DNA from: Betaproteobacteria bacterium
GTDB lineage: Bacteria; Pseudomonadota; Gammaproteobacteria; Burkholderiales; SG8-41
Direction of reading: 5' to 3'
DNA length: 44,657 bases
NCBI GenBank assembly: GCA_016202615.1
Contig: JACQOI010000216.1
Location: 1-44,657, forward strand
The position numbers were made by a program, and so were the translations under genes. This document shows positions 25,907 to 39,270 of the stretch, one piece after another; position 1 is the first letter of the stretch, and each line of letters opens with the position of its first letter. Below the pieces are notes generated by a model. That model had not been told where the DNA came from and made no database searches. It saw nothing but the letters and a program-made list of their open reading frames with translations.

Positions 25907-26923
25907 TCAGACCCGGAACGCGTAATACGGACAGCGCGAGCAGCAACCCGGAGATTTCTTGACAAAACCTTTCCGGAACCGCTCGATGTCCTCCGACGCC
26001 CAGAGCTCCTTGAACGGGACCTTGAGCACGTTGCCGAAGTTGATCTTTTCCTGGTGCAGGATCATGCAACACGGCTTCAGGTCCCCCTCCACCGTTACCG
26101 CGGGCGAGATCCAGGGTGACGGGCATACCTCGGCGCTCGGCAGGAACGGTTCGGGCATGATCTTCAAGTTCGGGAACTCCTTCAACCACCGGGGCAGGTT
26201 GGTATTGAGACTTGCCGCTTCGCCGGCGTCGAGCACGCCGCTGCCGTAACCCATGTCGAAGAAAGGCTGCAGCCAGACGTTGAACCTGCCCAGCTGGCTG
26301 AGCCGTTCGAACAGGTCGGGGAGGCGCGGCAGGTTGCCCTTGCTCACGGTCACCCGCACGCCGATCCTGTCCGGGAAACGCTCCGAGAACTCCCGCAAAC
26401 GCGCTTCGAGCTTGGGGATATCGGTCTCGGCGCGCAGCTTGCCGATGAGCTTTTCGTCGAGCGTGTCGACCGATACGGTGAGGCCGTTCAGGCCGGCTTC
26501 GAACAGCCTGGCGTAGAAATCGACGGCGCGCACGAGGGCATTGGTGTTGATCTCGATCCGGTCGAATTTCCCCGATTGTTTTGCGATGCGGATCAACTCG
26601 GTGATTTTCGGGTGCATCGTCGATTCCCCGATGCCCTGCGGGATGAACAGCTTGGCGGGAGGCAGCGCTTCGACCACGGTGCGGAAGTTCTGTACCGACA
26701 TGTGCCGATTGGACCAGGCGTTTTCGTCGGTCATGATCGTGCGTACGCATCCTGAGCACTTGAGATTGCAATACGTAGTGACCTCGACGACCACCATGTT
26801 GAGCTTGCTCGGAACGTGATAATCGTCCCCGGACATTTTGCGCCAGATCTTGCGGGCGGTCGTGCGCAGACCTTGTTGCTTTACGCTCGCGAGCAAGGTT
26901 GAAACCGGATTCTTCTTCGCCAT
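25907..26923 (-). CDS. Radical SAM enzyme with C-terminal SPASM/twitch-like Cys-rich domain, 338 aa
   Basis: CxxxCxxC cluster motif TTYCNLKCSGC near the N-terminus. C-terminal CPSPWISPAVTVEGDLKPCC fits Cx9-15Gx4C, followed by CCSRCPYY close to the end (partial SPASM, i.e. twitch-like). ATG 26923-26921. Confidence 0.8.
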   Translation of the reverse strand: MAKKNPVSTLLASVKQQGLRTTARKIWRKMSGDDYHVPSKLNMVVVEVTTYCNLKCSGCVRTIMTDENAWSNRHMSVQNFRTVVEALPPAKLFIPQGIGESTMHPKITELIRIAKQSGKFDRIEINTNALVRAVDFYARLFEAGLNGLTVSVDTLDEKLIGKLRAETDIPKLEARLREFSERFPDRIGVRVTVSKGNLPRLPDLFERLSQLGRFNVWLQPFFDMGYGSGVLDAGEAASLNTNLPRWLKEFPNLKIMPEPFLPSAEVCPSPWISPAVTVEGDLKPCCMILHQEKINFGNVLKVPFKELWASEDIERFRKGFVKKSPGCCSRCPYYAFRV

Positions 26924-26943
26924 TCAAGTTTTTCCGTTGCCGG

Positions 26944-27558
26944 TCACTGCGGCTGCCGCCGGTTGTCGATCGTTCTTATCACCCGTGCCGGCGCGCCGGC
27001 TGCGACATGATAGTCCGGGATATCGCTCGTCACCACCGAGTTGGCCCCGATCACGCAGTTCCTCCCGATCGTGACGTTCGGCAGTATCGAGACATTGATG
27101 CCTATCCAGGTGCCGTCGCCAATGCTGACGGGGCCCGGCGAGAACATGTACTGGTCCTTGATCGGCAGTTCCCGGTTCGCATAACCATGGTAACAATCGC
27201 CAATGAAAACCCGGTCTGAGATCATCACGTCGTTGCCAATGCGTATGTCGTTCATGCAGGCGAACGTTGCGAACCGGCCGATGTAGCAATTGTCGCCGAT
27301 GGCGAAGTTGGGGGACATAACGACATCGGGGGCGTTTTTCTGGTAATTAACGGGCAGCATGCTGATCCAGCAGAATTCCGCGATGAAAACGTTGTCGCCT
27401 ATCGTCACGCACTCCGGATGGTTGATTTTTATGCCGCGCTTGAGAATGACGCCGCGGCCCTTGTGCTTCAGGGCCCGGCGCAGGGGCAGTGAGCGCAGTC
27501 GCTCCACCCACAGCTCCATGCGGTTGAGCAATTGAATCAAGGTCTGGGCTGACGGCAT
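26944..27558 (-). CDS. Left-handed beta-helix (hexapeptide-repeat) O-acetyltransferase, 204 aa
   Basis: Hexapeptide repeats IGDNVFI, IGDNCYI, IGNDVMI, IGDGTWIGINVSILPNVTIGRNCVIGANSVV. Resembles maltose/galactoside acetyltransferase. Confidence 0.85.
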   Translation of the reverse strand: MPSAQTLIQLLNRMELWVERLRSLPLRRALKHKGRGVILKRGIKINHPECVTIGDNVFIAEFCWISMLPVNYQKNAPDVVMSPNFAIGDNCYIGRFATFACMNDIRIGNDVMISDRVFIGDCYHGYANRELPIKDQYMFSPGPVSIGDGTWIGINVSILPNVTIGRNCVIGANSVVTSDIPDYHVAAGAPARVIRTIDNRRQPQ

Positions 27559-27577
27559 CGTCGAGGATGGCCGGCGG

Positions 27578-29278
27578 TTACGGCGCCCCCACGGCAGCCA
27601 TTATCGCCGATCCCGACCGCAATGAGGCGATCACCCCGCTGTATAACTGTTCCATCGCGCGGTTGTCGAACCGCTCGAGCACATGGACTAGATCGGTTGC
27701 GTTTCCTGCGGCGGGGAAGGCGAACGGCCGAAGGCCGCCCACGCGCGCCGGGGACATGCCGAAGACCACTGCCGGGATGCCGAGCATGACGGCCTCGAAC
27801 AGGCCGGTCGTAAGGCCGAAGATCACAAGATCGAACCGGGGCATCAGCTCGGTCGTGCGCCGGGAGGGATCGACTATCGTGAAATCGAGCCCCGACACCT
27901 GCCGGAGCCGCTCGATTTCGGCCGATTTTGTCGTCAGGCTTGCTTCGGTGCCGCTGTGGACCTTCGCATGTATGTTCCGCGATTGCACACCCACGCGCGC
28001 CAGCGCTTCGCAGACCTCCGCCAACTCGATGATCGAGCAGTCCTCGCGGCTTGCCTGCGAGGCCACGGCCCAATCGGAGACGAGGACCAGCACTCGCACA
28101 TCGCGCCAGGGCGCTGACAGGGGCCGAAACGGCCGCGGCGAGTGCCGGAACTGGGGGTGGACCACCGCGACCGCTTGCCATCCTCGCCGCCGGAAAGCCG
28201 CGGCCGAAGATTCATTCCAGGCGAGGATCCGGTCGGGCAGGAATGGTGACGCCATGTGTTCGCCGGAGAAATCCTCGAAGATCAGGCCGTGCGGCAGGTA
28301 ATCCACTGCGATCCCCAGCCGGTGCGCCGCGTGTGCGAGCACACGACAGGCGTCGAGGCGGTCGTGTATCATCACGACGCGCTTCACGCCGAGTGGCCGC
28401 AGCATCCCGATCAGCGCTTCTTCGGTGCGATCGAGGAAGCCGGCGGGAAAGTCGTCGTCGAACGCGCGCAGCAGGCAATCGACAATCCGGATCTCGTCGT
28501 CGGCGAAGTGCTGCCGCCATGCCGCGCATCGTGCAAATCTCAGCGGCGCATCATCGAGCTCGATGGGCCGGTCGAGGAATGCAGTCGAACCGCGCAGCCC
28601 GAGCAGCTCACCTGCCTTTTCGAGGAGGCGGCCGGAAATGTTCAACGCCTTGATGAAACTGAGCCAGAAGATCCGCCTGTCCTTCAGGTCAATGTTCCAG
28701 TAGGACTGCACGAGAAAATCGCGCTTTCCGGAGAACGCTGCCGTGAGGCGCCAACGCAGCGCGCGCAATTTCCGTGGATCGAGCTTGCGCGGCAGCCCGT
28801 AAGTCCGCACGAGATACACGTGTGCCGAGGTTGCGTCGAGGCTTCCCGTCGCGACTTCGAGGCGTATGCCGGACTCGGCAGCGACCGCCCGGCACGCATG
28901 GACGAGGTCGCGGTCCGCGCCTGAAGAAAGATGGATCGCATCGGGCTCGATCCGCCGCACGAGATTCCTCAGGCAGCGCTTGACCCACAAATAGCGCGAC
29001 AGGCGATAGACGATGAGGAGGTAGGCGGCCGGCGCCCATCGCGAGTCGGAATGTTCCCGCGCTTCGGTGTGCAGGCAATGATCGAGGTCGCGGTAGAGTG
29101 TCGTGTCGAGCGCCTCGCCCACCTGTTCGCCGGGCGCGAAGTCGGAAAACCGCCAGCTGGCGATATTCCTCCGCGCCAGGCCGAGGTGCCGGATCGGGCT
29201 GAGGCACACGATCGCCTGGAACTCGTCCAGCGCGCCGAAATACTCGCCGCAAAGAAGTATTACTGCGTTTCGCTTCAT
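27578..29278 (-). CDS. Orphan 566-aa protein, GT-B-like C-terminal half; function unknown (candidate glycosyl/nonulosonate transferase)
   Basis: The track start at 29326 is a TTG. Trimmed to the ATG at 29278-29276 (MKRNAVILLCGEYFG). The C-terminus (RVLVLVSDW..., TELMPRFDLVIFGLTTGLFEAVMLGIPAVVFG) has Rossmann-like strand-helix periodicity typical of GT-B donor domains. No family recognised by eye. Confidence 0.4.
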   Translation of the reverse strand: MKRNAVILLCGEYFGALDEFQAIVCLSPIRHLGLARRNIASWRFSDFAPGEQVGEALDTTLYRDLDHCLHTEAREHSDSRWAPAAYLLIVYRLSRYLWVKRCLRNLVRRIEPDAIHLSSGADRDLVHACRAVAAESGIRLEVATGSLDATSAHVYLVRTYGLPRKLDPRKLRALRWRLTAAFSGKRDFLVQSYWNIDLKDRRIFWLSFIKALNISGRLLEKAGELLGLRGSTAFLDRPIELDDAPLRFARCAAWRQHFADDEIRIVDCLLRAFDDDFPAGFLDRTEEALIGMLRPLGVKRVVMIHDRLDACRVLAHAAHRLGIAVDYLPHGLIFEDFSGEHMASPFLPDRILAWNESSAAAFRRRGWQAVAVVHPQFRHSPRPFRPLSAPWRDVRVLVLVSDWAVASQASREDCSIIELAEVCEALARVGVQSRNIHAKVHSGTEASLTTKSAEIERLRQVSGLDFTIVDPSRRTTELMPRFDLVIFGLTTGLFEAVMLGIPAVVFGMSPARVGGLRPFAFPAAGNATDLVHVLERFDNRAMEQLYSGVIASLRSGSAIMAAVGAP

Positions 29279-29485
29279 TTCCGGCGCCCCCGAATCAACC
29301 GCCCGGCCGCTCGCCGCGGCCGCCAAAGTCCTGCTGCCGTCACAAAACCGGCGGCGTCAGGAGCGAAGAACAGCAGCGACGTTTGGAACGGCCATAGGAT
29401 AGCAGCGATTACCTGCGCGGATACTTTCCGGGATCGCCTCGATGAAATTCAGCCGCGCTTTGTTATCGAATTTGCGCGCGCGAAC

Positions 29486-31444
29486 TCATAGTCCGGTCAG
29501 AAGCTCTATTCTGTTTGCCTCGGATAGGCTCGCGGGGGGCTTCCGGTTTTCCATTACGATGCTTCTCAATGAAATCACTTTCTTACTCGGAACCGGCTTT
29601 TTACTTAGAATGCTTCGCCGATAATCTTCGCCGATCCGCTTTACCTTCTGCTTGGGAGATATGAACCTGTAATAACTGAAGGCTTCCCTCCTCTTGTACA
29701 GCAATATGACATAGTACTCGAGCAGCAATAGCAACTTGATTATGGGATACAGTAAAATCCGCGGAACCCTGGCGGCGAGGGGCGAAGGGATGATTTTTCG
29801 CTGAATGAAGAGCGAGGCAAACGGATAAAACGACGTCTTCCATTTTCGCGTTTTTATCTTTCTGATGATGATGTCTCTTATGCTTTCGTTCCCAAAGACC
29901 GGGGTTGGTTTAAAAATGATGCTTTCTACTTCGTGCGCGGCATAGGCTGAAGTTTGTGCGCCGTTATTTCTTCTGCCGGTTTCCTTGAGATAATATCTCA
30001 TCGCCTCCAGTTGCGCCAACAAATCCCAAAATAGTAATTCACTGACGGGGGCGCCGTTCAAGTTCACGTAGGATAATTTGTAGCTGGGAGCCGTGAATAC
30101 GTTTTCCAGGTAATCTTCTTCGTCGTCGACGGTGCTCCCGATTACACCGACTTGCTGACCATATTCGTAAAGCGGGGTCCCGGGAAACGGGATCGCGTAC
30201 ATCAAATCCTTGCCCTCGGCAGGATGAGAGTGGGTGGCAAGCGCGATTTCAGCCATCAATTTGCCCGTCTCTTTGGCGGTTTCTTCCGTTTCGCCGGGCA
30301 TGCCGAACAGGATGGCTAACGGGGAAAATATCTTGCGGTCCCTGCACCATTTCACGGCGTTTATCACCTGTTCCCGCTTGAATTTCTTCTCCATCAGATC
30401 AAGAATATCTTGGCTGCCCGACTCGATGCCGAATTTCAACGCAACACAGTTATTGTCCGCATAAAATTTGATCGATTCGGGCGTAACAGTGTCGCACCTG
30501 ACCCCGGTGGCGGCCCACAGCATATCGTGCTTTTTCATGATTGCCGCGAACTCGAATGCCTGTTTCTTGTCCGAACCGAAATTTTCGTCCGAAACCGATA
30601 TGAACCCGACGTCGTGATTGTTTTTCAGATACAAAACATGCTCTTCGAGTTCCGGCACATTCCCGGCACGAAACCCTTTGGTCGGGCGTTGACAAAAGGT
30701 GCATCGGGCCACGCAACCTTTATTGACCATCAGCATTGCTATATTCGGTTTTCTTCCGCTTTCGTGCGCCCGGGGATCATGGTTGAACCAATGCGATTCA
30801 CGAGCCGGCCTGAAATAATTTTTCAGTAACTCAGGTTGATCTTGTAACCCTTTCTTGAGCAAATCGTAATCGGGCACCAAAGACATGTCCGATGCGGGCA
30901 GTTTCTCGCCAAATCCGGTAAACGAGAATTCACCTGCCGCATTGAGGAATGCCAAGCCTTTGATGTCGCCAAGAACACCGGGATCGATGGTTCTGCCGTG
31001 TTTTTTCGTGTAGTCCAGCAATTTGACCCACGCAATTTCGCCGTCACCCGCCACGCAAATGTCAACGTCGGTTTTCTTGAGTACGATATTTGCCGATGCA
31101 GCCAGATTCCCTCCCAAAACCATCATGGTGTCCGGGCAGGCGCTCCTGATGATGCGCGCATATTTTTTGACCCGGCCGTAAGTTCCCGATGTAACGGCGC
31201 TGAGCCCTACGATGTCGGGTTTGCTGCTCTGAAAATACGCACGAATTTCGTCGTCTGACGGAAGCAGCATGTCCATGTCGTAAAAATCGAGTTCATCCCG
31301 CTTATAGCCGTTTTTCCACATCCATTGCGCCAGCGCGGTAATTCCAAACTTGGGCAAAACCGGAAGGTTTCCCAGCCCTCGCACCTTGTTTGTGAGGTCA
31401 AAATGCACCGGTTCCCCGGGTACGCTGCACAACACAATCTTCAT
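29486..31444 (-). CDS. B12-binding-domain radical SAM enzyme (class B), with ~130-aa hydrophobic/basic C-terminal extension, 652 aa
   Basis: ATG 31444 is preceded by AAGGAG (31455-31450, 5-nt spacer). B12-type segment PDIVGLSAVTSGTY...MMVLGGNLA. Cluster motif NKGCVARCTFCQR; GMPGETEET. Paralog of the 31638-33638 product. Lower G+C than the island (27-32 per 60 nt in four hand-counted lines). Confidence 0.85.
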   Translation of the reverse strand: MKIVLCSVPGEPVHFDLTNKVRGLGNLPVLPKFGITALAQWMWKNGYKRDELDFYDMDMLLPSDDEIRAYFQSSKPDIVGLSAVTSGTYGRVKKYARIIRSACPDTMMVLGGNLAASANIVLKKTDVDICVAGDGEIAWVKLLDYTKKHGRTIDPGVLGDIKGLAFLNAAGEFSFTGFGEKLPASDMSLVPDYDLLKKGLQDQPELLKNYFRPARESHWFNHDPRAHESGRKPNIAMLMVNKGCVARCTFCQRPTKGFRAGNVPELEEHVLYLKNNHDVGFISVSDENFGSDKKQAFEFAAIMKKHDMLWAATGVRCDTVTPESIKFYADNNCVALKFGIESGSQDILDLMEKKFKREQVINAVKWCRDRKIFSPLAILFGMPGETEETAKETGKLMAEIALATHSHPAEGKDLMYAIPFPGTPLYEYGQQVGVIGSTVDDEEDYLENVFTAPSYKLSYVNLNGAPVSELLFWDLLAQLEAMRYYLKETGRRNNGAQTSAYAAHEVESIIFKPTPVFGNESIRDIIIRKIKTRKWKTSFYPFASLFIQRKIIPSPLAARVPRILLYPIIKLLLLLEYYVILLYKRREAFSYYRFISPKQKVKRIGEDYRRSILSKKPVPSKKVISLRSIVMENRKPPASLSEANRIELLTGL

Positions 31445-31637
31445 TGCAACTCCTTAATTTTACGGCAGATTCATGCTATTTCCGAGTAATTTAGTCAGAT
31501 ATTAGCATACCCTCTGACGTTCAGGTAGGCGTATGTGCATGACAAACCTCGCCGCCCCTTGCCCCAAACTGACCGAGATGATAATCCATCTCATTAAAGA
31601 ATGCATGGTTGGCGAGATTTTGGTTTAGACTTAGTCT
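31445..31637. promoter_or_regulatory. AT-rich divergent promoter region between the two paralogous B12-radical SAM genes
   Basis: 193-bp gap between divergent genes. On the minus strand there is an extended -10-like TGCTAATAT (31507-31499), about 55 nt upstream of ATG 31444. On the plus strand there is a weak TTGCCC (31559-31564) followed by TGATAATCC (31579-31587). All of these are candidates only. Confidence 0.35.
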
Positions 31638-33638
31638 ATGCGTATCTCTCTTCTGACCGTACCGGTCGAGACGAATTACATGGATTTCCTTCCCGAGGTC
31701 CGCGCGGAAACCGACATCCTGGTTCCATCGACGCGTTCCGAAGGCCAGCTGCCGGTGATACCCAAGATCGCCATCGTCAGCCTCATCAAATGGATGGAGC
31801 GCCACGGCTACACACGGGATCAGTACGATTACTACGACGTGGACATGCTCCTGCCCTCGGACAAGGAGTTGCTTGACTATTTCAAGAGCTACAACCCGAC
31901 TATCATTGGCCTGAGCGCGGTGGTCTCAACCTGCTACGCCCAAGTCAAACGGATCTCGAGGCTTCTTCGCCAAGCCTGCCCGGACGCCTGGATCGTGTTG
32001 GGCGGTAGTCTTACCGCGTCCTCCAATTTGATCCTGCGCAAGACGGAAGTGGACATTTGCGTGGTCGGCGACGGCGAGATCGCCTGGGTCGATTTCCTCG
32101 ATTACGTGAAGGCCCGCGGCCGCAAGAAGGACTTCAACGCGCTGGGCAATATCACGGGCCTTGCTTTCCTCGACGATGCGGGCGAGCTGCGCTTCACCGG
32201 TTATGGAAAGCAGATTCCCGCCGAACTCAACCCCTTTCCCGACTACGACATCCTCAAGGCGGGGCTTAGGACCCGTCCGCAGGAATTTGCGAATTACTTC
32301 CGCCCCGGTCTGGGATCAACGCACTTCCTGACCGATCCCCGTTCCCTTGAGCCACATCGTCGACCGATGCTCGCCCAGTTGTGGAGTTCCAAGGGCTGCG
32401 TCGCTCGCTGCACCTTCTGCCAGCGTTCCACCAAGGGTTACCGCGTCCTGGGCGTGGATTCGTTGGACGACCATTTGAAGATGCTCGCGAAGCGCTTCAA
32501 CGTCGGCTATATCCACATCCTGGATGAAAATTTTTCCTCCGACAGGGAATATGCCTACGAGCTTGCCCGAACCATGAAAAGGCATGACATGCTGTGGATG
32601 GCCAGCGGCGTTCGCGTCTCCTCGGTCGATTACGACGATATCAAATTCTACAAGGAGCATGGCTGCGTTAGCCTCAAATTCGGCGTCGAATCCGGCAGCC
32701 AGAAAATCATGGACGTGATGGAGAAGAAGTTCACGGTCGAGCGTGTTTTTCAGACTCTTAAACACTGCGCGGATCTGGATGTTTACTCCCCGCTTGCGGT
32801 CATGGTCGGTATGCCCGGCGAGACTTGTGAGACCGCGGCCGAAACTGGCCGCTTTCTCGGGCGCATTGCGCACATGCAAGGTGTTGATCCACAATGGCTC
32901 GGCCTTTCCTGTTTCTACGCACTGCCGCTGACTGGCACTCCGTTATATGTCTACGGCCAACAGGCCGGTGTTATCGGCAAGACCCCGGAGAAGGAGGAGG
33001 ATTACCTGCTCTCTGTCTCCGGTAGCGGGGCCAGCAAAATCAACTACGTCAATCTTAACGGTGCGAACGTCCGCGATGTGGTCTGGTGGGACTGGCTGGT
33101 CAAGCTCGAGGCCCAACGCACTTTCTTTGATCTCGTGAAAAAAACGCCCTTGGGCGAGCCTGGCCACATGCAGAGAGTCCTCGTCAGCGATAGGGAACGC
33201 GAGATAGTGGGCCGTGCGCTGACTCTTCGCAAGATTCTGGACAGCGTCAAGAATTGCAATCTACGCGTGGTCAAGGCCAAGATCTTCTACTGGGTTGAGG
33301 ATGTGCTCATGGAACGCGTTGTAGTCCCGAGCAGGCTTGTTGCGAGTCTCCCGCGCTGGCTCATCTATCCTCTCTTCAAGAATCTGGTCTATGTCAACTT
33401 TTTGGTACAGGGGTATGCTTTGCGCGCGTTCGGCAAGTCCTTCAGCCTGTGGAAGAAGTGGCCAGCCGTCGAGCCCGTACGTGAGGCGCAGAAAGTCCAT
33501 GCGCGCGAAGTGCAGAGAGTTAACGTGAAACTCAACATTCAAAGATCTCTGCGGAGGGTGGTGCGTGAGCGCACCCGAGAACATCCGCCCGCCTCGCAAA
33601 CCGAAGCAAACCAGGACATTCTCTCCATCGGTCTCTGA
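31638..33638 (+). CDS. B12-binding-domain radical SAM enzyme (class B), paralog of 29486-31444, 666 aa
   Basis: Colinear with the minus-strand paralog from Met1: PTIIGLSAVVSTCY...WIVLGGSLT, an identical SKGCVARCTFCQR motif, GMPGETCET, and a shared C-terminal PPAS..EAN...L..GL ending. Confidence 0.85.
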   Translation: MRISLLTVPVETNYMDFLPEVRAETDILVPSTRSEGQLPVIPKIAIVSLIKWMERHGYTRDQYDYYDVDMLLPSDKELLDYFKSYNPTIIGLSAVVSTCYAQVKRISRLLRQACPDAWIVLGGSLTASSNLILRKTEVDICVVGDGEIAWVDFLDYVKARGRKKDFNALGNITGLAFLDDAGELRFTGYGKQIPAELNPFPDYDILKAGLRTRPQEFANYFRPGLGSTHFLTDPRSLEPHRRPMLAQLWSSKGCVARCTFCQRSTKGYRVLGVDSLDDHLKMLAKRFNVGYIHILDENFSSDREYAYELARTMKRHDMLWMASGVRVSSVDYDDIKFYKEHGCVSLKFGVESGSQKIMDVMEKKFTVERVFQTLKHCADLDVYSPLAVMVGMPGETCETAAETGRFLGRIAHMQGVDPQWLGLSCFYALPLTGTPLYVYGQQAGVIGKTPEKEEDYLLSVSGSGASKINYVNLNGANVRDVVWWDWLVKLEAQRTFFDLVKKTPLGEPGHMQRVLVSDREREIVGRALTLRKILDSVKNCNLRVVKAKIFYWVEDVLMERVVVPSRLVASLPRWLIYPLFKNLVYVNFLVQGYALRAFGKSFSLWKKWPAVEPVREAQKVHAREVQRVNVKLNIQRSLRRVVRERTREHPPASQTEANQDILSIGL

Positions 33639-33657
33639 AGCGCGGCAGATAGTCGTT

Positions 33658-34440
33658 CTACAAGGTGAAGCCGTCGTCTACTACGATGTTCTGCCCGGTC
33701 ACGAAAGCCGACCAATCCGACAGCAGGTAAATCAAGGTGCCGCTGATGTCGGTGCGGTCCAGCATGCCCTTGGTCTGGCAATGCCGCCGGTAGTTCTCGA
33801 GGAAAACGGCGGGCTGCCCGTCTTCAATGCCGCCCGGGCTGACGGAGTTTACGCGCACGCCGGTCCCCTTGAGCAGCTTCGCCAGATAGCGCGTCAACTG
33901 GATAATCCCGGCCTTGATCACCGCGTACTCGACCGGCATTGTCATGCTCGTGCCCTCATAGATTTCGAAGCGTGGCGCTATCACGCCGTAGATCGAAGCG
34001 ATGTTGACGATGCTGCCGCCGCCGGTCCGCGACATGGCCTTGGAAAACCGCTGGCAGGTGAGGAAGTAGCCGCCAAGATGAGCGTCGATGTTGGCGCAGA
34101 AATCGCCGTACTCGACATCGAAAAACTGGCGCCCGTGGTTGGGAGCGTAATTGGGAGTGCGAGGATACGCCGCATTCACGAGGCCGTCGATGCGTCCATA
34201 TCGCTTGATGGTCTCACCGACCAGGGCCTCCACGCTTTCCGGCTGGGTAATATCGACCGCGTATGCTGTCGATTTGCTTTTGGGGGCCAGCTTCAGCAAG
34301 TCGGCTAGCGCTGCTTCCGCCGAAGCAAGCGCGACGTCTGCAAGGATCGCAGTGCCCCGCTGCAATGCGATGGCCTTGGCGAACTCCCTGCCCAGCAGAC
34401 CGGCCCCGCCGGTTACGACGATGACCTTGGCTTCAAGCAT
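33658..34440 (-). CDS. Short-chain dehydrogenase/reductase (PtmA-like, as found beside CMP-nonulosonate synthetase genes), 260 aa
   Basis: MLEAKVIVVTGGAGLLGREFA Rossmann motif, NIASIYG and YAVIKAG (YxxxK). The track start is the GTG at 34449; I prefer the ATG at 34440, which overlaps the upstream gene by 8 nt. Confidence 0.8.
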   Translation of the reverse strand: MLEAKVIVVTGGAGLLGREFAKAIALQRGTAILADVALASAEAALADLLKLAPKSKSTAYAVDITQPESVEALVGETIKRYGRIDGLVNAAYPRTPNYAPNHGRQFFDVEYGDFCANIDAHLGGYFLTCQRFSKAMSRTGGGSIVNIASIYGVIAPRFEIYEGTSMTMPVEYAVIKAGIIQLTRYLAKLLKGTGVRVNSVSPGGIEDGQPAVFLENYRRHCQTKGMLDRTDISGTLIYLLSDWSAFVTGQNIVVDDGFTL

Positions 34441-35149
34441 GTTTTGCACGCGCCTTCATCAGGTGCTCAACGATCATGAAATCCAATTCCGAATCGATGT
34501 CCACGGAGCGCTCCTCCGGCATTACGTAGAGCAGTGTATCCGGATTGAACAACGTGTCGCTGCCGAACAGCGACTGGCGGTGCCATACATAGATTGAAGC
34601 GTTCATATCGTAGCAGGCCGGGGCGTCCTGGCGTCGGGCAATCGGTCGTGGCGACGGTTTTGACAGCCGCGCGATGCCGTCCTGCCCGACTTCGACCAGG
34701 TTGAAATAGGGCGATCGCCGCGCAGGAGCTCCCGTAATGACGTTCGAAACGCGGCGGTCTTCAAGCATTGCGGTGGCGTTGACAATGTCCTGCGGTTCGC
34801 GCAGCGGTGAGGTCGCATCGAGATCAACGACGGTATCAAAGTTGTGCCCGGCAAGGCGCTCTGTCTCGGTCACGCAATGCCGGATCGCGGGCAGTTTGGG
34901 CGCCGTGTCGCTTGCCAGTTCGGCCGGCCGCTCGATCAGGTGATCGGCGCCGTAATTACGCGCAGCGGCCAGGATTTCAGACGAATCGCTGCTCACCGCG
35001 ATGGCGTCGAACAGGCCACTGGCGCGCGCCTGTTCGAGGCTGTGAGCAAGCAGCGGTCTGCCGAGCAGCGGGCGCAGATTCTTGTTTGGCACGCCCTTGG
35101 ATCCGCCGCGAGCACAGAGGGTGCAGAGCCGTTTCACGGCGTCACCCAT
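34433..35149 (-). CDS. legF: Acylneuraminate/nonulosonate cytidylyltransferase (CMP-legionaminic acid synthetase candidate), 238 aa
   Basis: CARGGSKGVPNKNLRPLLGRPLLAHSL is the CTP_transf_3 (NeuA) N-terminal signature; also DATSPLR. Sits in an operon with leg genes. The symbol could equally be neuA. Confidence 0.8.
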   Translation of the reverse strand: MGDAVKRLCTLCARGGSKGVPNKNLRPLLGRPLLAHSLEQARASGLFDAIAVSSDSSEILAAARNYGADHLIERPAELASDTAPKLPAIRHCVTETERLAGHNFDTVVDLDATSPLREPQDIVNATAMLEDRRVSNVITGAPARRSPYFNLVEVGQDGIARLSKPSPRPIARRQDAPACYDMNASIYVWHRQSLFGSDTLFNPDTLLYVMPEERSVDIDSELDFMIVEHLMKARAKHA

Positions 35150-35186: not shown

Positions 35187-37310
35187 TCAGTGGGCCAGGG
35201 TATAGCGCGTATAGCGGTCCACATCGGTATCGGCGAACAGCTCTTCGGTGCCGTCGGCGCCCTCCACGTTCCGAAACAGGCTTTCCAGGTTGCTGATGCG
35301 CGTGACGATCTTGGACAGCGCGTTGACGTCGGTGCCGTAGCGGCGGAACTGGTCTTCGCGCGTCCGCAGCTGTTCGTCCGTGTAATAAAACCGGTATGCC
35401 CTGGGCTGGTTAAATTGAAATGTGCTGAGCGCCGTGCCTTCCGGAGAACGCAACCAAGCGGGCACATCGTGTCTGAGAAGCAGGGTCACAGGCTCGGTAT
35501 TGCCCCTGGAATTCAGCAGTCCCTCGATACGCGCCTGGCAGAAGGCGGATATCGTATCGATTTCCGTACCCGCGACGGCGAGCGCGTCGTCCTGGAGCCG
35601 CTCCCCGGCCAACATGCGCAGCTCTGCAACCAGGTAGCGGATCCAGTCTCCGGCCTGGAAAGCAACGCTTTTCGATTTGTACTTGTAGATCAGGTTGCCG
35701 CCCACCTCACCCCGACGCAGGCGCTGGAAGTTGACCTCGTCCTTGTAATGCTCCAGCAACTCGTCTTCGGAGGCCCACAATTCCCCCTCGGTCTCGGCCA
35801 TGAAGTCGGCGTATAGGGCGCGAATTGTCTCAGGCGCCCGGGCAAGGGATTCGTAAAGCCGCCGTAGCAGGGTGGCGCGCTTGATGCCCAACGAAAGCGC
35901 GTAGCGGAACAATTCCTCGAACGGACGTCCGTTGTGGATGCTTTCCACGATCAGCGCGAAACCCCGCAAAAAAAGATAATCCGCGAATGACATGGTATTG
36001 GTCCGGACGCAGACCTCTTCATAATCAAGCACCCGCCCGCCATCATAGTCGCCGAAGTTCAGCGGCACGATACGAAACCGGCCTTCGATGCCAAAACGGC
36101 GGCGGTAGTCGGGTTCCTTGAACTCGGTGCCATTCAGCAGCATCAGCGTATAGATAGTCACCGACGACGCGCCTGACTCGATCACCGCCTCGACGCCGTT
36201 AACGAAGCTTTCACGGGTTTCGCCGGGCAGTCCGATAATCAATTCCGCCTTGGTGGAGCGGCCGGCCTCACTGAGGTGTTTGTTGATATCGATGTAGTGT
36301 TCGAGCTTGATGTTGGAACGGCGAATGTTTTCCAGGACGCCCTTGTCCATGGACTGCACCGACATGTTCACCGAGAACATCTTGCCGAGGATGCCGGTTA
36401 TTTCGATCACGCGTTCCTTGGCGTTCTTCCCGGTGGTTGCCATTACCTGGCGCGGCCAGTCAAATTTCTGCTGCGTTTCGTAAAGAGCTTCGCAGATCTC
36501 GCGATCGCGCGGAAACATCCCGAAATTGGTGTCCGCGATATGCAGGTTGGACACCTTCAATTGGGCGGCGCGGGGTGCAATGTAAAAAATTTCCTCCCGC
36601 ACCCGCTCAATGGAAAACGAATTCATCTTTTGGAAGTAATCTGCGCCGGTATGGCAGAACGAGCACCTGAACGGACACCCGCGGTTAGTCTCGATAAACG
36701 GTGTGAGTCGACCGTCGAAGAAGTGCTCCAGCATGCCGTTTAAATAGGGCGAAGGGATGACGTCCAGATTACGCAGACGTGCAGGCGCCTGCGTCTTTAC
36801 CAGAGTCGGGGAGGCCGATCCGCGCGTTGACGGTTCGATGAAGATAATGCCCTCGATGGGCGCGTCGAATACCGTCCGGCCGCCTTCGCGGGCATCGAGC
36901 ACGCGCCGGACGAGATTGGCGAACGCGACCTCGCCTTCGTACTCGATATGAGCGTCCGTCGCTGGCCGGCGCAGCAAAAACTCGATCCTCAGCGCATCAT
37001 CATGGGGGAAGTTTGTGCCGCCTTGCACCACCACCGCAGCCGGGTTCGCGGCACGCGCCGCTGCAGCGACGCGCTCCGACAGGTTCGAGTTCCATGAATA
37101 GTTCGAAAGACCCAGTATGTCCGGCGGGTCAGCCTTGATCGCGGCCAGGGCAACGGCCGGATATTTGTACAGAGAAACCCTGACCGCATCGCCGAACTGC
37201 TGCTTGGCGTAGCTGCCCACGAACCCGATGTTGATGGGGATGGTGTCAGACACCAGGATGATTGAATCATGGGTCAGATCGCACAGGCAGATCTTCAGCG
37301 GCCTGCTCAC
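35187..37310 (-). CDS. B12-binding-domain radical SAM enzyme with ~300-aa C-terminal helical extension, 707 aa
   Basis: Trimmed to the GTG at 37310-37308 (VSRPLKICLCDLTHD), which overlaps the upstream TGA (GTGA). B12-type segment PDILGLSNYSWNSNL...VVVQGGTNFP. Cluster motif NRGCPFRCSFCHTG; GLPGETRESF. G+C 33-35 per 60 nt in two hand-counted lines, versus 40 per 60 in legC. Confidence 0.85.
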   Translation of the reverse strand: MSRPLKICLCDLTHDSIILVSDTIPINIGFVGSYAKQQFGDAVRVSLYKYPAVALAAIKADPPDILGLSNYSWNSNLSERVAAAARAANPAAVVVQGGTNFPHDDALRIEFLLRRPATDAHIEYEGEVAFANLVRRVLDAREGGRTVFDAPIEGIIFIEPSTRGSASPTLVKTQAPARLRNLDVIPSPYLNGMLEHFFDGRLTPFIETNRGCPFRCSFCHTGADYFQKMNSFSIERVREEIFYIAPRAAQLKVSNLHIADTNFGMFPRDREICEALYETQQKFDWPRQVMATTGKNAKERVIEITGILGKMFSVNMSVQSMDKGVLENIRRSNIKLEHYIDINKHLSEAGRSTKAELIIGLPGETRESFVNGVEAVIESGASSVTIYTLMLLNGTEFKEPDYRRRFGIEGRFRIVPLNFGDYDGGRVLDYEEVCVRTNTMSFADYLFLRGFALIVESIHNGRPFEELFRYALSLGIKRATLLRRLYESLARAPETIRALYADFMAETEGELWASEDELLEHYKDEVNFQRLRRGEVGGNLIYKYKSKSVAFQAGDWIRYLVAELRMLAGERLQDDALAVAGTEIDTISAFCQARIEGLLNSRGNTEPVTLLLRHDVPAWLRSPEGTALSTFQFNQPRAYRFYYTDEQLRTREDQFRRYGTDVNALSKIVTRISNLESLFRNVEGADGTEELFADTDVDRYTRYTLAH

Positions 37311-38221
37311 GATTTCACCCAGCTTCCTTGAGCTGCCGCCGCTTCGATGCAATGAATAAGCTCGACGATTCGTGCTCCTTCGGTGAGAGAACAAAAGTCC
37401 GCGCGGTCTTTTGAGAGCACCGCTTCGAGCTGCAGGCGGTAGGTGGTGTCGCGCTCACAAGCGAACGGCTCTTCAACCCCGTCTCGCCACAATGCGCCGC
37501 TGACGAGGTCGGCCCGGTAACTATGCGAATCGGTATCGACCGCGATTTCGCGCCGCGGCGCCCGGTCGAGATAATTCATCTGGAGAGTCAGCATCGGGCA
37601 GCGCTCGAGTTGCATCAGGATCGCCCAGGCGTCGTCGCTATCGATGTCGAGGCTGCTGAAATGCCCGCCGAGGGCCGCCACGCGCTGCCAATTCCCGAAC
37701 AACCACAGCGCGTAATCGAGTTCGTGGCTCAAGTCGCGCAATACGCCGCCGCCCGCGTCCCGGCGCGCCGAATAGGATTGCCGGTAATCGCGCTCCGGCC
37801 GCCAGTCCGGCAAATACTGTCCGACATGGACTTGGGCCGAAATCACCTTCTCCGCGGCAAGGACGCGGCGCAAAGCCTGGATGACCGGATGAAAGCGCAA
37901 GTTGTAGGCGACGAAAATGTCCGCAAACGGCCAGTCCCGCACCGGCGCAGGCCGATCGGACAAAGGTTTCTCGACCAGCACCGTGCCGGCGTACCCGCAG
38001 TCGGCCAGGCGCTCCAGGGTCTCGATATGCCGCGATGTTTCGTTTGAGACGACGACCAGTTCGGGCCTCAGATCGGCCAGCGCGGCGTCCATCCCCGCAT
38101 AGGCAGGGTAACTGCATTCCGGATTGCGCGTTACTGCGCCAACCCGTACCCCGCGTTCGGCGAGCAGTTGCGCGTGGCGCGCCCCGATCGAACCGAAGCC
38201 GATGATTACCGCGCTTTTCAC
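37307..38221 (-). CDS. Gfo/Idh/MocA-family NAD(P)-dependent oxidoreductase, 304 aa
   Basis: MKSAVIIGFGSIGARHAQLL Rossmann N-terminus and the EKP motif (VLVEKPLS). GTG start 38221-38219 overlaps the upstream TGA (GTGA). Confidence 0.8.
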   Translation of the reverse strand: MKSAVIIGFGSIGARHAQLLAERGVRVGAVTRNPECSYPAYAGMDAALADLRPELVVVSNETSRHIETLERLADCGYAGTVLVEKPLSDRPAPVRDWPFADIFVAYNLRFHPVIQALRRVLAAEKVISAQVHVGQYLPDWRPERDYRQSYSARRDAGGGVLRDLSHELDYALWLFGNWQRVAALGGHFSSLDIDSDDAWAILMQLERCPMLTLQMNYLDRAPRREIAVDTDSHSYRADLVSGALWRDGVEEPFACERDTTYRLQLEAVLSKDRADFCSLTEGARIVELIHCIEAAAAQGSWVKS

Positions 38222-39270
38222 GGTGCGAATTTGCCTTCATATTCGTTCCGGGCGCGCTCCAGGTCGTCGATGCGGCCGATGTCGAGCCAGTATTCGCGCA
38301 GGGGAAAAACGGCCGCCTGACCGCCGCCGTCCATCACCCGGTTGAAGAGATCGGGCATGTCGATCGCGGAGGCCGCCGGCAGATAATCGAGCGCGCCCGG
38401 ATTGAGTACGTAAATGCCGGCATTGACGAAAAACTTCTGCGCCGGTTTTTCCTTGACCCCCACCAGCCGATGGCCTTCGATGCTGACCATGCCATAGGGA
38501 ATTTGCTGCTCGTATTCACGTACGCACATGGTCGCTGCCGCGTTATGGCTGGCGTGGAAATCGAGCAAGTGCTGGAAATTGATCTTCGTCAGCAAATCGC
38601 CGTTCATCACGATCAGCGGCAGCCGCGGCGCCGGTACGAGCAGCCTCAACGCGCCCGCGGTTCCGAGTTGCTGCTCTTCCTCGAGATAGCGAATCTTCAC
38701 GTTCCACTCGCTGCCGTCGCCGAAATGCTCCTTGATCATGTCGGATTTGTAGTTCACGGAAAAGTGGAACTGGCTGAAGCCGTATTCGATGAAGTTTTCG
38801 AGAATAGTTTCCAGTATCGGCTTGTCGCCGACGCGCAGCATCGGCTTCGGACATTCGTCCGTGAGCGGGCGCAGACGGCTGCCGAGGCCGCCCGCCATGA
38901 TCACGACCTGGTTCTGCCTGTTCACGGGTTGCAGCAGATCGTCCATTATCTCGACCCCGACCAGCCGGCCTTCCTCATCGAGTATCGGTATCTGATGCAG
39001 CTGCTTCTGGCGCATCATCAGCAAAATGCCGTCGCGCGACTCGTTGATGGTCGCAGTCGTCGGGCGGGGATTCATGATCGACTCGACCGGCGCTTCGAGA
39101 TTGGTCCCACGCAGGATCGCCCGCCGCACATCGCCGTCCGTCACGGTCCCGATCAGGCGTGACATGTTGTCGACGACCAGCGCGATCTGCATTGCGCTCG
39201 CATCGATCATCCGGATCGTGTCGCGGATCGTCGTCGATCCGCGCACCACGCTTTGCTTCCAGTTATGCAT
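38218..39270 (-). CDS. CBS-domain-containing sugar-phosphate nucleotidyltransferase (PtmE-like, GDP-sugar supply for the legionaminic acid pathway), 350 aa
   Basis: Trimmed to the ATG at 39270-39268 (MHNWKQSVV), an 8-nt overlap with the upstream gene. The N-terminus carries a tandem CBS-like pair (IALVVDNMSRLIGTVTDGDVRR; HQIPILDEEGRLVGV), followed by VVIMAGGLGSRLRPLTDECPKPML. Confidence 0.8.
   Translation of the reverse strand: MHNWKQSVVRGSTTIRDTIRMIDASAMQIALVVDNMSRLIGTVTDGDVRRAILRGTNLEAPVESIMNPRPTTATINESRDGILLMMRQKQLHQIPILDEEGRLVGVEIMDDLLQPVNRQNQVVIMAGGLGSRLRPLTDECPKPMLRVGDKPILETILENFIEYGFSQFHFSVNYKSDMIKEHFGDGSEWNVKIRYLEEEQQLGTAGALRLLVPAPRLPLIVMNGDLLTKINFQHLLDFHASHNAAATMCVREYEQQIPYGMVSIEGHRLVGVKEKPAQKFFVNAGIYVLNPGALDYLPAASAIDMPDLFNRVMDGGGQAAVFPLREYWLDIGRIDDLERARNEYEGKFAP

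What the first reader, a model, noticed from the sequence alone, without database searches (positions are those of the whole stretch)
29486..33638. Divergently transcribed paralogous ~650-aa B12-radical SAM enzymes sharing a hydrophobic tail and a conserved extreme C-terminus
The 652-aa (minus) and 666-aa (plus) proteins align colinearly from Met1 (MKIVLCSVPGEP vs MRISLLTVPVET). The alignment runs through the B12-type segment (DIVGLSAVTSGTY...VLGGNLA vs TIIGLSAVVSTCY...VLGGSLT), an identical KGCVARCTFCQR cluster motif, and GMPGET. Both then carry an extension of about 130 aa. It includes a hydrophobic/amphipathic stretch (PSPLAARVPRILLYPIIKLLLLLEYYVILLY vs PSRLVASLPRWLIYPLFKNLVYVNFLVQGY). The two endings are nearly the same (SLRSIVMENRKPPASLSEANRIELLTGL vs SLRRVVRERTREHPPASQTEANQDILSIGL). 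The genes share a 193-bp AT-rich divergent promoter region. Hand counts of single 60-nt lines give 27-32 G+C in the minus copy and 27-38 in the plus copy, against 40-41 in leg and DegT-like genes. The pair therefore looks compositionally foreign, and the two copies are not recent duplicates. Inference: these are membrane-associated radical enzymes acting at two positions or steps on a lipid-linked or nucleotide-linked glycan. I do not recognise this architecture as a characterised family.
Basis: partly seen in the sequence, partly recalled or inferred. Interest (0 to 1): 0.8.

Follow-up and report, generated by a model that had tools for sequence, protein, structure and literature searches.

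The report
B12 radical enzymes tailoring legionaminic acid
Two old paralogous vitamin-B12-dependent radical enzymes sit inside a gene cluster for a bacterial sialic-acid-like sugar (legionaminic acid). They belong to a widespread, uncharacterised enzyme clade that may carry out carbon-methylation of such sugars, a reaction for which no enzyme is known.

Summary
ORF A (29486-31444, minus, 652 aa) and ORF B (31638-33638, plus, 666 aa) are full-length, 44% identical class B (cobalamin) radical SAM proteins separated by a 193-bp, 43.5% GC spacer. Each has closer orthologs elsewhere (A up to 84%, B up to 74%), so the duplication is old. Both keep every clade-invariant residue. The extreme C-terminus is a clade hallmark: SLRxIV, a variable spacer, then G(L/R) at the end. 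It persists in sister-clade members with about 33% core identity.

The "hydrophobic tail" is not a general membrane anchor. Only A reaches a transmembrane-like score, B and most homologs do not, and AlphaFold places the helix in a confident C-terminal helical domain like those that bind substrate in TokK and TsrM.

The genes lie inside a complete legionaminic-acid pathway. Homologs sit in nonulosonic-acid or other glycan loci in many phyla, including cultured magnetospirilla. The divergent pairing is not conserved.

Best reading: soluble or peripheral tailoring enzymes, most likely radical C-methyltransferases acting on the sugar or its nucleotide-linked precursor. Unexplained C10 ulosonic acids reported in Magnetospirillum gryphiswaldense would fit, but I could not test that link.

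The parts
29486..31444 (-). ORF A, 652-aa class B (cobalamin) radical SAM enzyme, 'A-type' orthogroup
   Evidence: ORF. Pfam B12-binding plus Radical_SAM. Orthologs P0119 84%, P0115 82%, P0120 67%. AF2 pLDDT 85.7, pTM 0.86. AAGGAG Shine-Dalgarno 5 nt upstream of the start.
31638..33638 (+). ORF B, 666-aa class B radical SAM enzyme, 'B-type' orthogroup; one of two plus-strand ORFs without an overlapping annotated minus-strand gene in an otherwise minus-strand locus
   Evidence: ORF. Pfam domains. Orthologs up to 74% identity. AF2 pLDDT 88.5, pTM 0.87. Foldseek best matches TsrM, OxsB, AprD4, MgmA, CysS and TokK.
31445..31637 (.). 193-bp divergent intergenic spacer, 43.5% GC
   Evidence: No sigma-70 consensus hit inside it and no Rfam element or cobalamin riboswitch.
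31025..31357 (-). ORF A cobalamin-binding Rossmann domain (aa 30-140)
   Evidence: PF02310, 41.1 bits against a cutoff of 32.1. No DxHxxG motif.
30257..30724 (-). ORF A radical SAM core (aa 241-396), including CVARCTFC at aa 244-251
   Evidence: PF04055, 69.4 bits. CxxxCxxC motif.
29489..30046 (-). ORF A family-specific C-terminal helical domain (aa 467-652). It includes the hydrophobic helix at aa 562-584 (29693-29761) and the SLR...GL tail at aa 625-652 (29489-29572).
   Evidence: Secondary structure and pLDDT. Hydropathy maximum 2.09. Conservation.
31761..32087 (+). ORF B cobalamin-binding Rossmann domain (aa 42-150)
   Evidence: PF02310, 46.0 bits.
32388..32858 (+). ORF B radical SAM core (aa 251-407), including CVARCTFC at aa 254-261 (32397-32420)
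   Evidence: PF04055, 68 bits. CxxxCxxC motif.
33069..33635 (+). ORF B family-specific C-terminal helical domain (aa 478-666). It includes helix 573-597 (33354-33428), a low-confidence linker at about aa 601-636, and the docked tail helices 638-648 and 654-664 (SLR...GL, 33546-33635).
   Evidence: A profile of this domain alone finds 98 representatives among 1.84 billion, and in the full-length hits the domain is at the protein's C-terminal end.
35187..37394 (-). ORF C, third B12 radical SAM enzyme (735 aa, KedN5-like), inserted between the PtmF-like and CMP-transferase genes
   Evidence: NF033712, 222 bits against a cutoff of 700. Homologs recur in L023, L060 and L090.
33658..35149 (-). PtmA-like SDR (33658-34449) and CMP-nonulosonate cytidylyltransferase, LegF/PseF-like (34433-35149). 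These are the genes most often adjacent to family members elsewhere.
37307..44318 (-). Legionaminic-acid pathway genes: PtmF-like, PtmE-like, LegH (NeuD/PglB family), LegI/NeuB, LegG/NeuC, LegC, LegB
   Evidence: NCBIfam above cutoff for LegB 529.6, LegC 548.2, NeuC 463.4 and NeuB 473.8 bits, and for LegH 225 bits.
25907..29326 (-). Co-conserved tailoring module downstream of A: rSAM/SPASM (25907-26923), hexapeptide acetyltransferase (26944-27558), unknown 582-aa protein (27578-29326)
   Evidence: The same module follows A-type orthologs in L088, L090 and L023. Family scans.

Best explanation
A and B are two functional cobalamin-dependent (class B) radical SAM enzymes. They tailor the legionaminic-acid-type nonulosonic acid made by the flanking pathway.

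Proposed mechanism, inferred by analogy with GenK, Fom3 and TokK:
1. The [4Fe-4S] cluster on CVARCTFC reductively cleaves SAM to the 5'-deoxyadenosyl radical.
2. That radical abstracts H from an unactivated sugar carbon.
3. The substrate radical takes a methyl from methylcobalamin held in the N-terminal Rossmann domain.
4. A second SAM re-methylates cob(I)alamin.

Each paralog has its own site or step. The likely substrate is the nucleotide-linked 6-deoxy-hexosamine precursor or the free or CMP-linked nonulosonic acid. Methylation of the terminal deoxy-methyl (hexose C6, which becomes NulO C9) would give a higher-carbon (C10) ulosonic acid.

The family-specific C-terminal helical domain, with its docked SLR...G(L/R) terminus, is proposed to cap the active site and bind the substrate.

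The enzyme class, intactness, glycan/NulO context and tail conservation are shown here. The reaction type, substrate and role of the tail are inferred.
For: ENZYME CLASS
- Pfam B12-binding plus Radical_SAM above threshold and CxxxCxxC present.
- Foldseek top hits are all class B enzymes: TsrM, OxsB, AprD4, MgmA, CysS and TokK, with E from 1e-15 to 1e-12.

INTACTNESS
- A and B keep all 88 positions that are at least 90% conserved across 54 clade members.

CONTEXT
- The window encodes LegB, LegC, NeuC, NeuB, LegH, PtmE, PtmF, LegF and PtmA around the pair.
- L002 has a B-type gene between PtmF and LegF.
- L088 and L023 have an A-type gene directly after LegF-PtmA.
- L006/L007 and L017 are full leg loci.
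- In 58 genome loci of at least 12 kb, a NeuB gene lies within 10 kb in 21, NeuC in 16 and LegF in 14. An unbiased census gives the same ranking.
- Sister-clade genes sit inside NulO operons of Magnetospirillum sp. ME-1 (DegT-rSAM-FeADH-NeuB-MT-CMP transferase), P. magneticum and P. caucaseum.

CHEMICAL PRECEDENT
- GenK performs C-6' methylation of an aminosugar. Fom3 uses a cytidylyl-linked substrate. MoeK5 and GenD1 are class B methylases of carbon centres in moenomycin and gentamicin biosynthesis (review PMC9204698).

ORPHAN PRODUCT
- CMP-activated ulosonic acids with an extended C10 backbone and a +CH2 mass series occur in M. gryphiswaldense, with no enzyme assigned.

TAIL
- In TokK the C-terminal domain binds substrate, and Tyr652 near the C-terminus contacts the substrate carboxylate. 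In TsrM a C-terminal loop caps the active site.
- Here the terminal helices are predicted at pLDDT of about 90 after a low-confidence linker, in both A and B.
Against: - No biochemical or genetic data exist for any member.
- Class B enzymes also catalyse non-methylating reactions (OxsB, BchE, AprD4, ThnL), and sequence cannot discriminate between these.
- The best NCBIfam hits (PhpK, BchE, HpnJ; 85-99 bits) are far below their cutoffs.
- The NulO association is not universal. L003, L004, many SAR11 loci and Prochlorococcus MIT 1341 show no NeuB within 10 kb.
- The window also encodes several other deoxysugar pathways that could supply the substrate.
- Presence of a clade member in M. gryphiswaldense itself was not shown. 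It is absent from the top-120 lists.
Confidence: 0.45

Rival explanations
1. The enzymes are class B radical SAM methylases or alkylases in the glycan pathway, but they do not act on the nonulosonic-acid backbone. They would modify an N-acyl substituent (for example acetyl to propionyl or isobutyryl) or another deoxysugar of the same polysaccharide.
For: The window holds several further sugar pathways and many methyltransferases: RmlC-like genes, CDP- or dTDP-type dehydratases, a TylCIII-like C-methyltransferase and a NanM-like O-methyltransferase. Some homologs lie in glycan loci without NulO genes. Iterative alkyl-chain building is known for class B enzymes such as TokK.
Against: The tightest and most frequent adjacency is to LegF, PtmA, PtmE and NeuB rather than to the other sugar genes.
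Confidence: 0.2
2. The enzymes carry out non-methylating radical chemistry on the sugar, such as epimerisation, dehydration or deoxygenation (AprD4-like), ring contraction or rearrangement (OxsB- or HpnJ-like), or C-C coupling. Cobalamin would then have a different role or none.
For: AprD4 and OxsB are among the best structural matches, and AprD4 is the only PDB sequence hit. HpnJ, for which a sugar ring contraction has been proposed (this is my own knowledge, not checked here), is among the best NCBIfam hits for B at 93.8 bits. A separate rSAM/SPASM enzyme in the module shows that this locus uses radical chemistry broadly.
Against: Most characterised class B enzymes are methylases. All these matches are remote, at 14-19% identity and far below family cutoffs. 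The orphan +CH2 products reported in magnetospirilla fit methylation.
Confidence: 0.17
3. The enzymes are membrane-anchored through the hydrophobic C-terminal stretch and act on a lipid-linked (undecaprenyl-PP) glycan at the membrane.
For: A and its orthologs have a 19-residue window with a Kyte-Doolittle score of 1.8-2.1. The loci often contain Wzx or ABC exporters. A peripheral, in-plane association cannot be excluded.
Against: B scores only 1.09. The family median of 1.22 is about the same as that of the soluble catalytic core (1.26), and only 8 of 120 reach 1.6. The segment carries conserved Pro-Arg, Tyr, Gln and Asn, and has Lys and Glu inside the A helix. AF2 gives it pLDDT above 90 within a compact single-body model with pTM 0.86-0.87. 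Gene adjacency points to cytoplasmic nucleotide-sugar steps.
Confidence: 0.1
4. The genes are passengers with a function unrelated to glycans, for example lipid, cofactor or peptide modification, and were inserted into a variable surface-polysaccharide island.
For: A has atypical GC (50% against 60.7%), and B is inverted relative to the locus. The Prochlorococcus member sits in a non-glycan island. The closest NCBIfam names include lipid and tetrapyrrole enzymes.
Against: The same neighbourhood recurs across Elusimicrobia, Nitrospinae, Beta-, Gamma- and Alphaproteobacteria, Planctomycetes and DPANN archaea. That is hard to explain without a functional link.
Confidence: 0.05

Closest known systems
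GenK (gentamicin C-6' methyltransferase) and other sugar-directed class B radical SAM methylases (GenD1, MoeK5, Fms7)
   Same: Cobalamin-binding Rossmann domain plus radical SAM core. They act on carbon centres in aminoglycoside and moenomycin biosynthesis, and GenK methylates an aminosugar carbon (C-6'), exactly the position type proposed here.
   Different: No detectable family-level sequence relationship. The C-terminal domain differs. Their substrates are secondary-metabolite pseudo-oligosaccharides, not primary surface-glycan nonulosonic acids. The activity proposed here is unproven.
Fom3 (fosfomycin; methylates cytidylyl-2-hydroxyethylphosphonate)
   Same: A class B methylase whose substrate is CMP-linked. 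The enzymes here sit next to a CMP-nonulosonate cytidylyltransferase.
   Different: A remote relative only. The related PhpK-family model scores 86-99 bits against a cutoff of 600. Fom3 belongs to phosphonate rather than sugar chemistry.
TokK/ThnK (carbapenem side-chain methylases; PDB 7KDX)
   Same: The same three-domain plan at about 660 aa. Foldseek aligns about 660 columns at TM about 0.5. The C-terminal domain and a residue near the C-terminus (Tyr652) bind the substrate. Several class B paralogs share one cluster.
   Different: 15-16% identity. The C-terminal domains of class B enzymes are described as vastly different from each other. The SLR...G(L/R) terminal signature is specific to the present clade.
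TsrM (PDB 6WTE), best Foldseek match
   Same: Cbl plus radical SAM fold, with a C-terminal element that caps the active site on substrate binding.
   Different: TsrM is a non-radical (polar) tryptophan methylase with a shorter C-terminal domain. Identity is 18-19% and TMq 0.45.
HpnJ / PhpK / BchE NCBIfam families (best sequence-profile hits)
   Same: The radical SAM core aligns. For HpnJ a sugar ring contraction has been proposed (my own knowledge, not checked here).
   Different: Scores of 74-99 bits against cutoffs of 481-600, and the genomic context differs (no hopanoid, phosphonate or bacteriochlorophyll genes). A and B are not members.

Membership tests
Class B (cobalamin-dependent) radical SAM enzymes | CxxxCxxC motif for the SAM-cleaving [4Fe-4S] cluster within a radical SAM (beta/alpha)6 core | tested here: met
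   CVARCTFC at A 244-251 and B 254-261. PF04055 scores 69.4 and 68 bits against a cutoff of 29.5.
Class B (cobalamin-dependent) radical SAM enzymes | N-terminal Rossmann-type cobalamin-binding domain | tested here: met
   PF02310 scores 41.1 and 46.0 bits against a cutoff of 32.1. The AF2 models show a beta-alpha-beta N-terminal domain.
Class B (cobalamin-dependent) radical SAM enzymes | Overall fold matching solved class B structures | tested here: met
   Foldseek finds TsrM, OxsB, AprD4, MgmA, CysS and TokK with E from 9e-16 to 1e-12, probability 1.00 and TM 0.45-0.52.
Class B (cobalamin-dependent) radical SAM enzymes | Actual cobalamin binding and methylcobalamin-mediated methyl transfer | not testable with these tools
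   This needs purified protein. AprD4 shows that a B12-like domain does not guarantee cobalamin use.
PhpK family P-methyltransferase (TIGR04479) | Score at or above the NCBIfam cutoff of 600 bits | tested here: not met
   85.6 bits for A and 98.8 bits for B.
HpnJ (TIGR03471) | Score at or above 577.6 bits, with hopanoid gene context | tested here: not met
   77.6 and 93.8 bits. No hpn genes are present in the window.
BchE (TIGR02026) | Score at or above 481 bits, with bacteriochlorophyll context | tested here: not met
   85.2 and 74.2 bits. The JGI name 'anaerobic Mg-protoporphyrin IX monomethyl ester cyclase' given to homologs is an over-annotation.
KedN5 family C-methyltransferase (NF033712), for ORF C only | Score at or above 700 bits | tested here: not met
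   222 bits over residues 67-521. ORF C is related but not a member.
Integral membrane or tail-anchored protein | At least one hydrophobic segment of transmembrane grade (Kyte-Doolittle 19-residue window at or above 1.6) conserved in the family | tested here: not met
   A scores 2.09 but B only 1.09. Only 8 of 120 homologs reach 1.6, and the median is 1.22 against 1.26 for the catalytic core. No dedicated transmembrane predictor was available, so for the A-type alone this is inconclusive.
The clade defined here (tailed, NulO/glycan-associated class B rSAM) | C-terminal helical domain ending in an SLRx(I/V)(I/V) box, about 15-22 residues, then G(L/R) as the last residues | tested here: met
   Present in A and B, in 109 and 99 of 120 close homologs, and in 165 and 162 of 169 sister-clade members. 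The domain profile finds only 98 representatives among 1.84 billion, C-terminal in the full-length hits.
Legionaminic-acid biosynthesis locus (context) | LegB, LegC, LegH, LegG/NeuC, LegI/NeuB and LegF present together | tested here: met
   TIGR04180 529.6, TIGR04181 548.2, TIGR03568 463.4 and TIGR03569 473.8 bits, all above cutoff. NeuD/PglB family 225 bits. The cytidylyltransferase hits PF02348 at 78.4 bits, but the PseF model at 125.7 bits is below its cutoff of 205.7.

The most novel reading that the evidence does not exclude
This tailed clade of B12 radical SAM enzymes may be the missing biosynthetic machinery for higher-carbon (C10 and larger) ulosonic acids. It would extend or branch the carbon skeleton of sialic-acid-like sugars by radical C-methylation of the 6-deoxy-hexosamine precursor or of Leg/Pse C9. 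Multiple paralogs in one locus (A, B and the KedN5-like ORF C here) would add successive carbons. That would explain the unassigned CMP-sugar series at m/z 679.198, 693.214 and 707.230 and the C10 marker fragments in Magnetospirillum gryphiswaldense. It would also imply that many uncultured lineages (Elusimicrobia, SAR11, Nitrospinae, DPANN archaea) display C-methylated nonulosonic acids.
Probability: 0.3. Interest if true: 0.8.

Novelty: new variant of a known kind. Interest (0 to 1): 0.62.

Why it matters
Nonulosonic acids such as sialic, legionaminic and pseudaminic acids are key surface determinants for host mimicry, phage recognition and flagellar assembly. Their known tailoring is limited to N- and O-substitution.

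No radical SAM enzyme has been linked to their biosynthesis in the searchable literature. Two mass-spectrometry studies report ulosonic acids with an extended carbon backbone whose biosynthesis is unexplained.

A defined, widespread clade of B12 radical SAM enzymes embedded in these pathways gives a concrete candidate. The test is direct, because members occur in Magnetospirillum sp. ME-1 and P. magneticum (the latter genetically tractable to my knowledge). It would add a new substrate class to class B radical SAM chemistry.

The strictly terminal, conserved SLR...G(L/R) tail is also a clean target for structure-function work on how these enzymes recognise substrates.

Tried and rejected
- Transmembrane reading of the tail. 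Kyte-Doolittle and hydrophobic-moment scans of A, B and 120 homologs led me to reject it as a family feature. It remains possible as a peripheral association for the A-type.
- Regulatory RNA in the spacer. An Rfam E-value search of 29000-34000 returned nothing, including no cobalamin riboswitch. The sigma-70 scan found no site in the spacer, and counts matched the shuffled controls.
- Mobile-element signature around the inverted B gene. The only long inverted repeats are the paralogous coding cores themselves.
- Annotated relatives. Megablast and tblastn against plasmids found no match. The PDB sequence search found only AprD4 at E=0.007.
- Literature. 'radical SAM' together with nonulosonic, legionaminic or cobalamin terms returned zero papers. 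The broader searches returned no paper linking the two.
- Identity of the conserved 582-aa neighbour. There were no Pfam, NCBIfam or PDB hits. The hhalign comparison with LIC12162 transferases gave probability 8.5% and E=0.004, which is inconclusive.
- Tail-to-core contacts. Model coordinates are not exposed to the scripting environment, so docking of the tail is inferred only from pLDDT and pTM.
- Presence of a clade member in M. gryphiswaldense. This remains untested, not negative.
- Divergent or paired arrangement as a conserved trait. I rejected this. Multi-copy loci are tandem or convergent and involve different subtypes.

Full report
1. OBSERVATION

ORF A is 29486-31444 on the minus strand (652 aa). 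ORF B is 31638-33638 on the plus strand (666 aa). BLASTP aligns them end to end at 44% identity and 62% positives.

Both score above Pfam's gathering thresholds for the B12-binding domain (PF02310) and the Radical_SAM domain (PF04055). Both carry one CxxxCxxC motif, CVARCTFC, and neither has DxHxxG. That fits the base-off cobalamin binding described for solved class B enzymes.

The spacer is 193 bp at 43.5% GC. It contains no sigma-70 consensus hit and no Rfam element, so there is no cobalamin riboswitch. ORF A has an AAGGAG Shine-Dalgarno sequence and ORF B has none obvious.

Composition is only partly as claimed. A is 50.0% GC, 2.3 SD below the gene mean of 60.7 +/- 4.6%. B is 56.8%, within 1 SD. 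The leg genes are 60-63%.

2. FAMILY AND AGE OF THE DUPLICATION

A search with B returned more than 1000 relatives. The top 120 are nearly all 610-720 aa, mostly at about 90-100% coverage, and none has a functional name beyond generic or wrong labels such as "BchE" and "YgiQ".

B has relatives up to 74% identical. A has its own orthologs at 84%, 82% and 67%. A and B are therefore separate, old orthogroups and not a local duplication.

No NCBIfam model is passed. The best are PhpK, BchE and HpnJ at 74-99 bits against cutoffs of 481-600. The only PDB sequence hit is AprD4 at E=0.007.

AlphaFold2 models are confident: B has pLDDT 88.5 and pTM 0.87, and A has 85.7 and 0.86. Foldseek places B among the solved class B enzymes TsrM, OxsB, AprD4, MgmA, CysS and TokK, at 14-19% identity and TM 0.45-0.52.

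Both paralogs keep all 88 positions that are at least 90% conserved in a 54-sequence alignment spanning the wider clade. Neither is a pseudo-paralog.

3. THE C-TERMINAL EXTENSION

Conservation is high through residue 495 or so of B. It then drops, except for LPR (571-573), SLR (637-639), V642, L662 and G665.

- The SLRx(I/V)(I/V) box occurs in 109 of 120 close homologs, and 99 of 120 end in GL or GR.
- A sister clade with only 32-36% core identity to A and B keeps the same signature: 165 of 169 contain SLR and 162 of 169 end in GR.
- A profile built from the C-terminal domain alone finds just 98 cluster representatives among 1.84 billion proteins. In the full-length hits (about 600-690 aa) the domain lies at the C-terminal end; the shorter hits look like contig-truncated fragments. 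The domain is clade-specific.

The hydrophobic stretch is transmembrane-grade only in the A-type (Kyte-Doolittle 19-residue score 2.09). B scores 1.09, and the family median of 1.22 is about the same as that of the catalytic core. The stretch carries conserved polar residues. In both models it forms a long helix with pLDDT above 90. A low-confidence linker follows, and then two terminal helices at pLDDT of about 90.

The TokK structure paper shows that class B enzymes share the Cbl and radical SAM domains but have family-specific C-terminal domains that bind substrate. In TokK, Tyr652 near the C-terminus contacts the substrate carboxylate. In TsrM a C-terminal loop caps the active site.

I therefore read the extension as the substrate-binding domain with a docked terminal cap, not as a membrane anchor.

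4. GENOMIC CONTEXT

The window is a complete 44,657-bp NCBI contig. It carries one large surface-glycan locus in which nearly all annotated genes lie on the minus strand. The locus includes:
- a Wzx-like flippase, GT2 and GT4 glycosyltransferases, deoxysugar genes and O- and C-methyltransferases;
- a complete legionaminic-acid pathway: LegB, LegC, LegG/NeuC, LegI/NeuB, LegH, PtmE-like, PtmF-like, LegF and PtmA-like;
- a third B12 radical SAM enzyme, KedN5-like, which interrupts PtmF-LegF;
- a tailoring module downstream of A, made of an unknown 582-aa protein, a hexapeptide acetyltransferase and an rSAM/SPASM enzyme.

Homologs repeat this picture.
- L002 has a B-type gene between PtmF and LegF.
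- L088 has the whole window order with only the A-type.
- L023, a Sulfuritalea MAG, shares 80-84% identity in LegB, LegC, LegG and LegI. It has the A-type gene after LegF-PtmA, and the KedN5-like, acetyltransferase, unk582 and rSAM/SPASM genes follow.
- L006 and L007 are full leg loci from a TARA Nitrosomonadaceae bin.

In 58 genome loci of at least 12 kb, NeuB lies within 10 kb in 21, NeuC in 16, LegF in 14 and sugar SDRs in 33. An unbiased ORF-cluster census gives the same ranking. It also adds a TIGR04372 glycosyltransferase, an ABC exporter and LIC12162 transferases as frequent neighbours.

With one or a few NeuB genes in a genome of several megabases, chance co-location within 20 kb would be about 1% or less. 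This last figure is my inference.

The association is not universal. L003, L004, many SAR11 loci and Prochlorococcus MIT 1341 lack NulO genes nearby.

The divergent pairing is unique to this window. Other multi-copy loci are tandem or convergent and combine different subtypes.

5. DISTRIBUTION

A pattern-seeded scan of 185,579 species genomes gave 488 confirmed relatives. Almost all of the 80 listed are from MAGs or SAGs: Elusimicrobia, Pelagibacteraceae, Nitrospinae, Dehalococcoidia, Bdellovibrionota, Planctomycetes, DPANN and other archaea, and Campylobacteraceae.

Cultured carriers of the sister clade include Magnetospirillum sp. ME-1, Paramagnetospirillum magneticum and P. caucaseum. In these the gene is inside or beside NulO operons. 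In ME-1 the order is DegT, rSAM (start overlapping the DegT stop), Fe-ADH, NeuB, methyltransferase, CMP-transferase.

6. MECHANISM AND THE LINK TO ORPHAN CHEMISTRY

Characterised class B enzymes are mostly radical methylases of unactivated carbons. GenK methylates C-6' of an aminosugar, and Fom3 acts on a cytidylyl-linked substrate.

No paper in the searchable library connects radical SAM enzymes with nonulosonic acids.

Two studies report ulosonic acids with an extended C10 backbone in Magnetospirillum gryphiswaldense.
- The 2020 survey found C10 marker fragments there, and the same species at lower abundance in Methanococcus.
- The 2026 SugarBase preprint found CMP-activated species at m/z 679.198, 693.214 and 707.230. 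The DMB marker was 311.10 instead of 297.09, and MS3 showed loss of four backbone carbons instead of three. No enzyme was assigned.

Radical C-methylation of the 6-deoxy methyl of the hexosamine precursor, or of C9 of Leg/Pse, would yield exactly such products. Several paralogs per locus would give a +CH2 series.

This is my preferred reading, but it is inferred. I could not show that M. gryphiswaldense itself has a clade member, and non-methylating chemistry cannot be excluded from sequence.

7. VERDICT

Glycan-linked, uncharacterised, old paralogs: yes. Membrane-anchored, unusual architecture, meaningful divergent pairing: no.
- The genes are new members of a previously undescribed, well-delimited clade of a known enzyme class. 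The likely new substrate class is nonulosonic acids.
- Interest is moderate to high, because the clade offers a directly testable candidate for an unexplained sugar modification.

Noticed in passing
window 35187-37394 (-): A third B12 radical SAM gene (735 aa, KedN5-like, 222 bits against a cutoff of 700) is inserted between the PtmF-like and CMP-transferase genes. Homologs recur beside family members in L023 (57% identity), L060 (55%) and L090, so the locus encodes three class B enzymes plus one rSAM/SPASM enzyme.
   Followed up: partly
window 27578-29326 (-): A conserved 582-aa protein has no Pfam, NCBIfam or PDB match. It always accompanies the leg locus with A- or B-type genes (L002 32%, L023 42%, L088 72%; L090 falls in the same ORF cluster). 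Its C-terminal half has a weak GT-B-like resemblance to LIC12162 transferases (hhalign E=0.004, probability 8.5%). It may be the legionaminyl transferase.
   Followed up: partly
window 25907-26923 (-): A radical SAM/SPASM (twitch-type) enzyme of 338 aa lies in the tailoring module. Related rSAM/SPASM genes occur in 14 of 65 family loci, including P. magneticum (L094). Its function is unknown. BtrN-like sugar oxidation or epimerisation is conceivable.
   Followed up: no
window 11414-14154 (-): A second low-GC block (GT2 47.8%, SDR dehydratase 51.5%, nucleotidyltransferase 50.3% GC) is as atypical as ORF A. This suggests mosaic assembly of the glycan locus.
   Followed up: no
window 9513-11381 (+): This is the only other plus-strand ORF without an overlapping annotated minus-strand gene. 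It encodes 622 aa with no Pfam or NCBIfam hit. It may be a Wzy-like polymerase or ligase, or a spurious ORF.
   Followed up: no
L001 11975-14660; L003 12126-13415; L038, L024, L034, L062 adjacent genes: A TIGR04372-family glycosyltransferase (about 430 aa) lies within 250 bp of a family member at 8 of the 21 places where it occurs (18 of 65 loci in all), often with an MsbA/PglK-like ABC exporter. It is absent from this window, which has a Wzx-type flippase instead.
   Followed up: partly
L001 7828-9984 and L090 251-2002: Some family loci carry E1-type (transketolase-like) dehydrogenase subunits, in L001 followed by a lipoyl/biotinyl carrier. Both loci also have DUF6016 and paired TylCIII-like C-methyltransferases. 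This hints at unusual acyl or branched-chain sugar chemistry next to the rSAM genes.
   Followed up: no
L095 (Prochlorococcus sp. MIT 1341, CP139304.1): A tailed sister-clade member sits in a small-ORF genomic island with a P450 and methyltransferases but no NulO genes. This counter-example may indicate a different substrate.
   Followed up: no
L022, L034, L053, L084: A shorter (about 480-525 aa) B12 radical SAM type without the SLR...G(L/R) tail occurs as the second copy next to tailed members. In L053 and L084 the two are in tandem.
   Followed up: no
window 31607-31646: ORF B has no recognisable Shine-Dalgarno sequence before its ATG, although homologs confirm that start (MRISLLTVPVE). ORF A has AAGGAG at the canonical distance. 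The two genes may be expressed at different levels.
   Followed up: no
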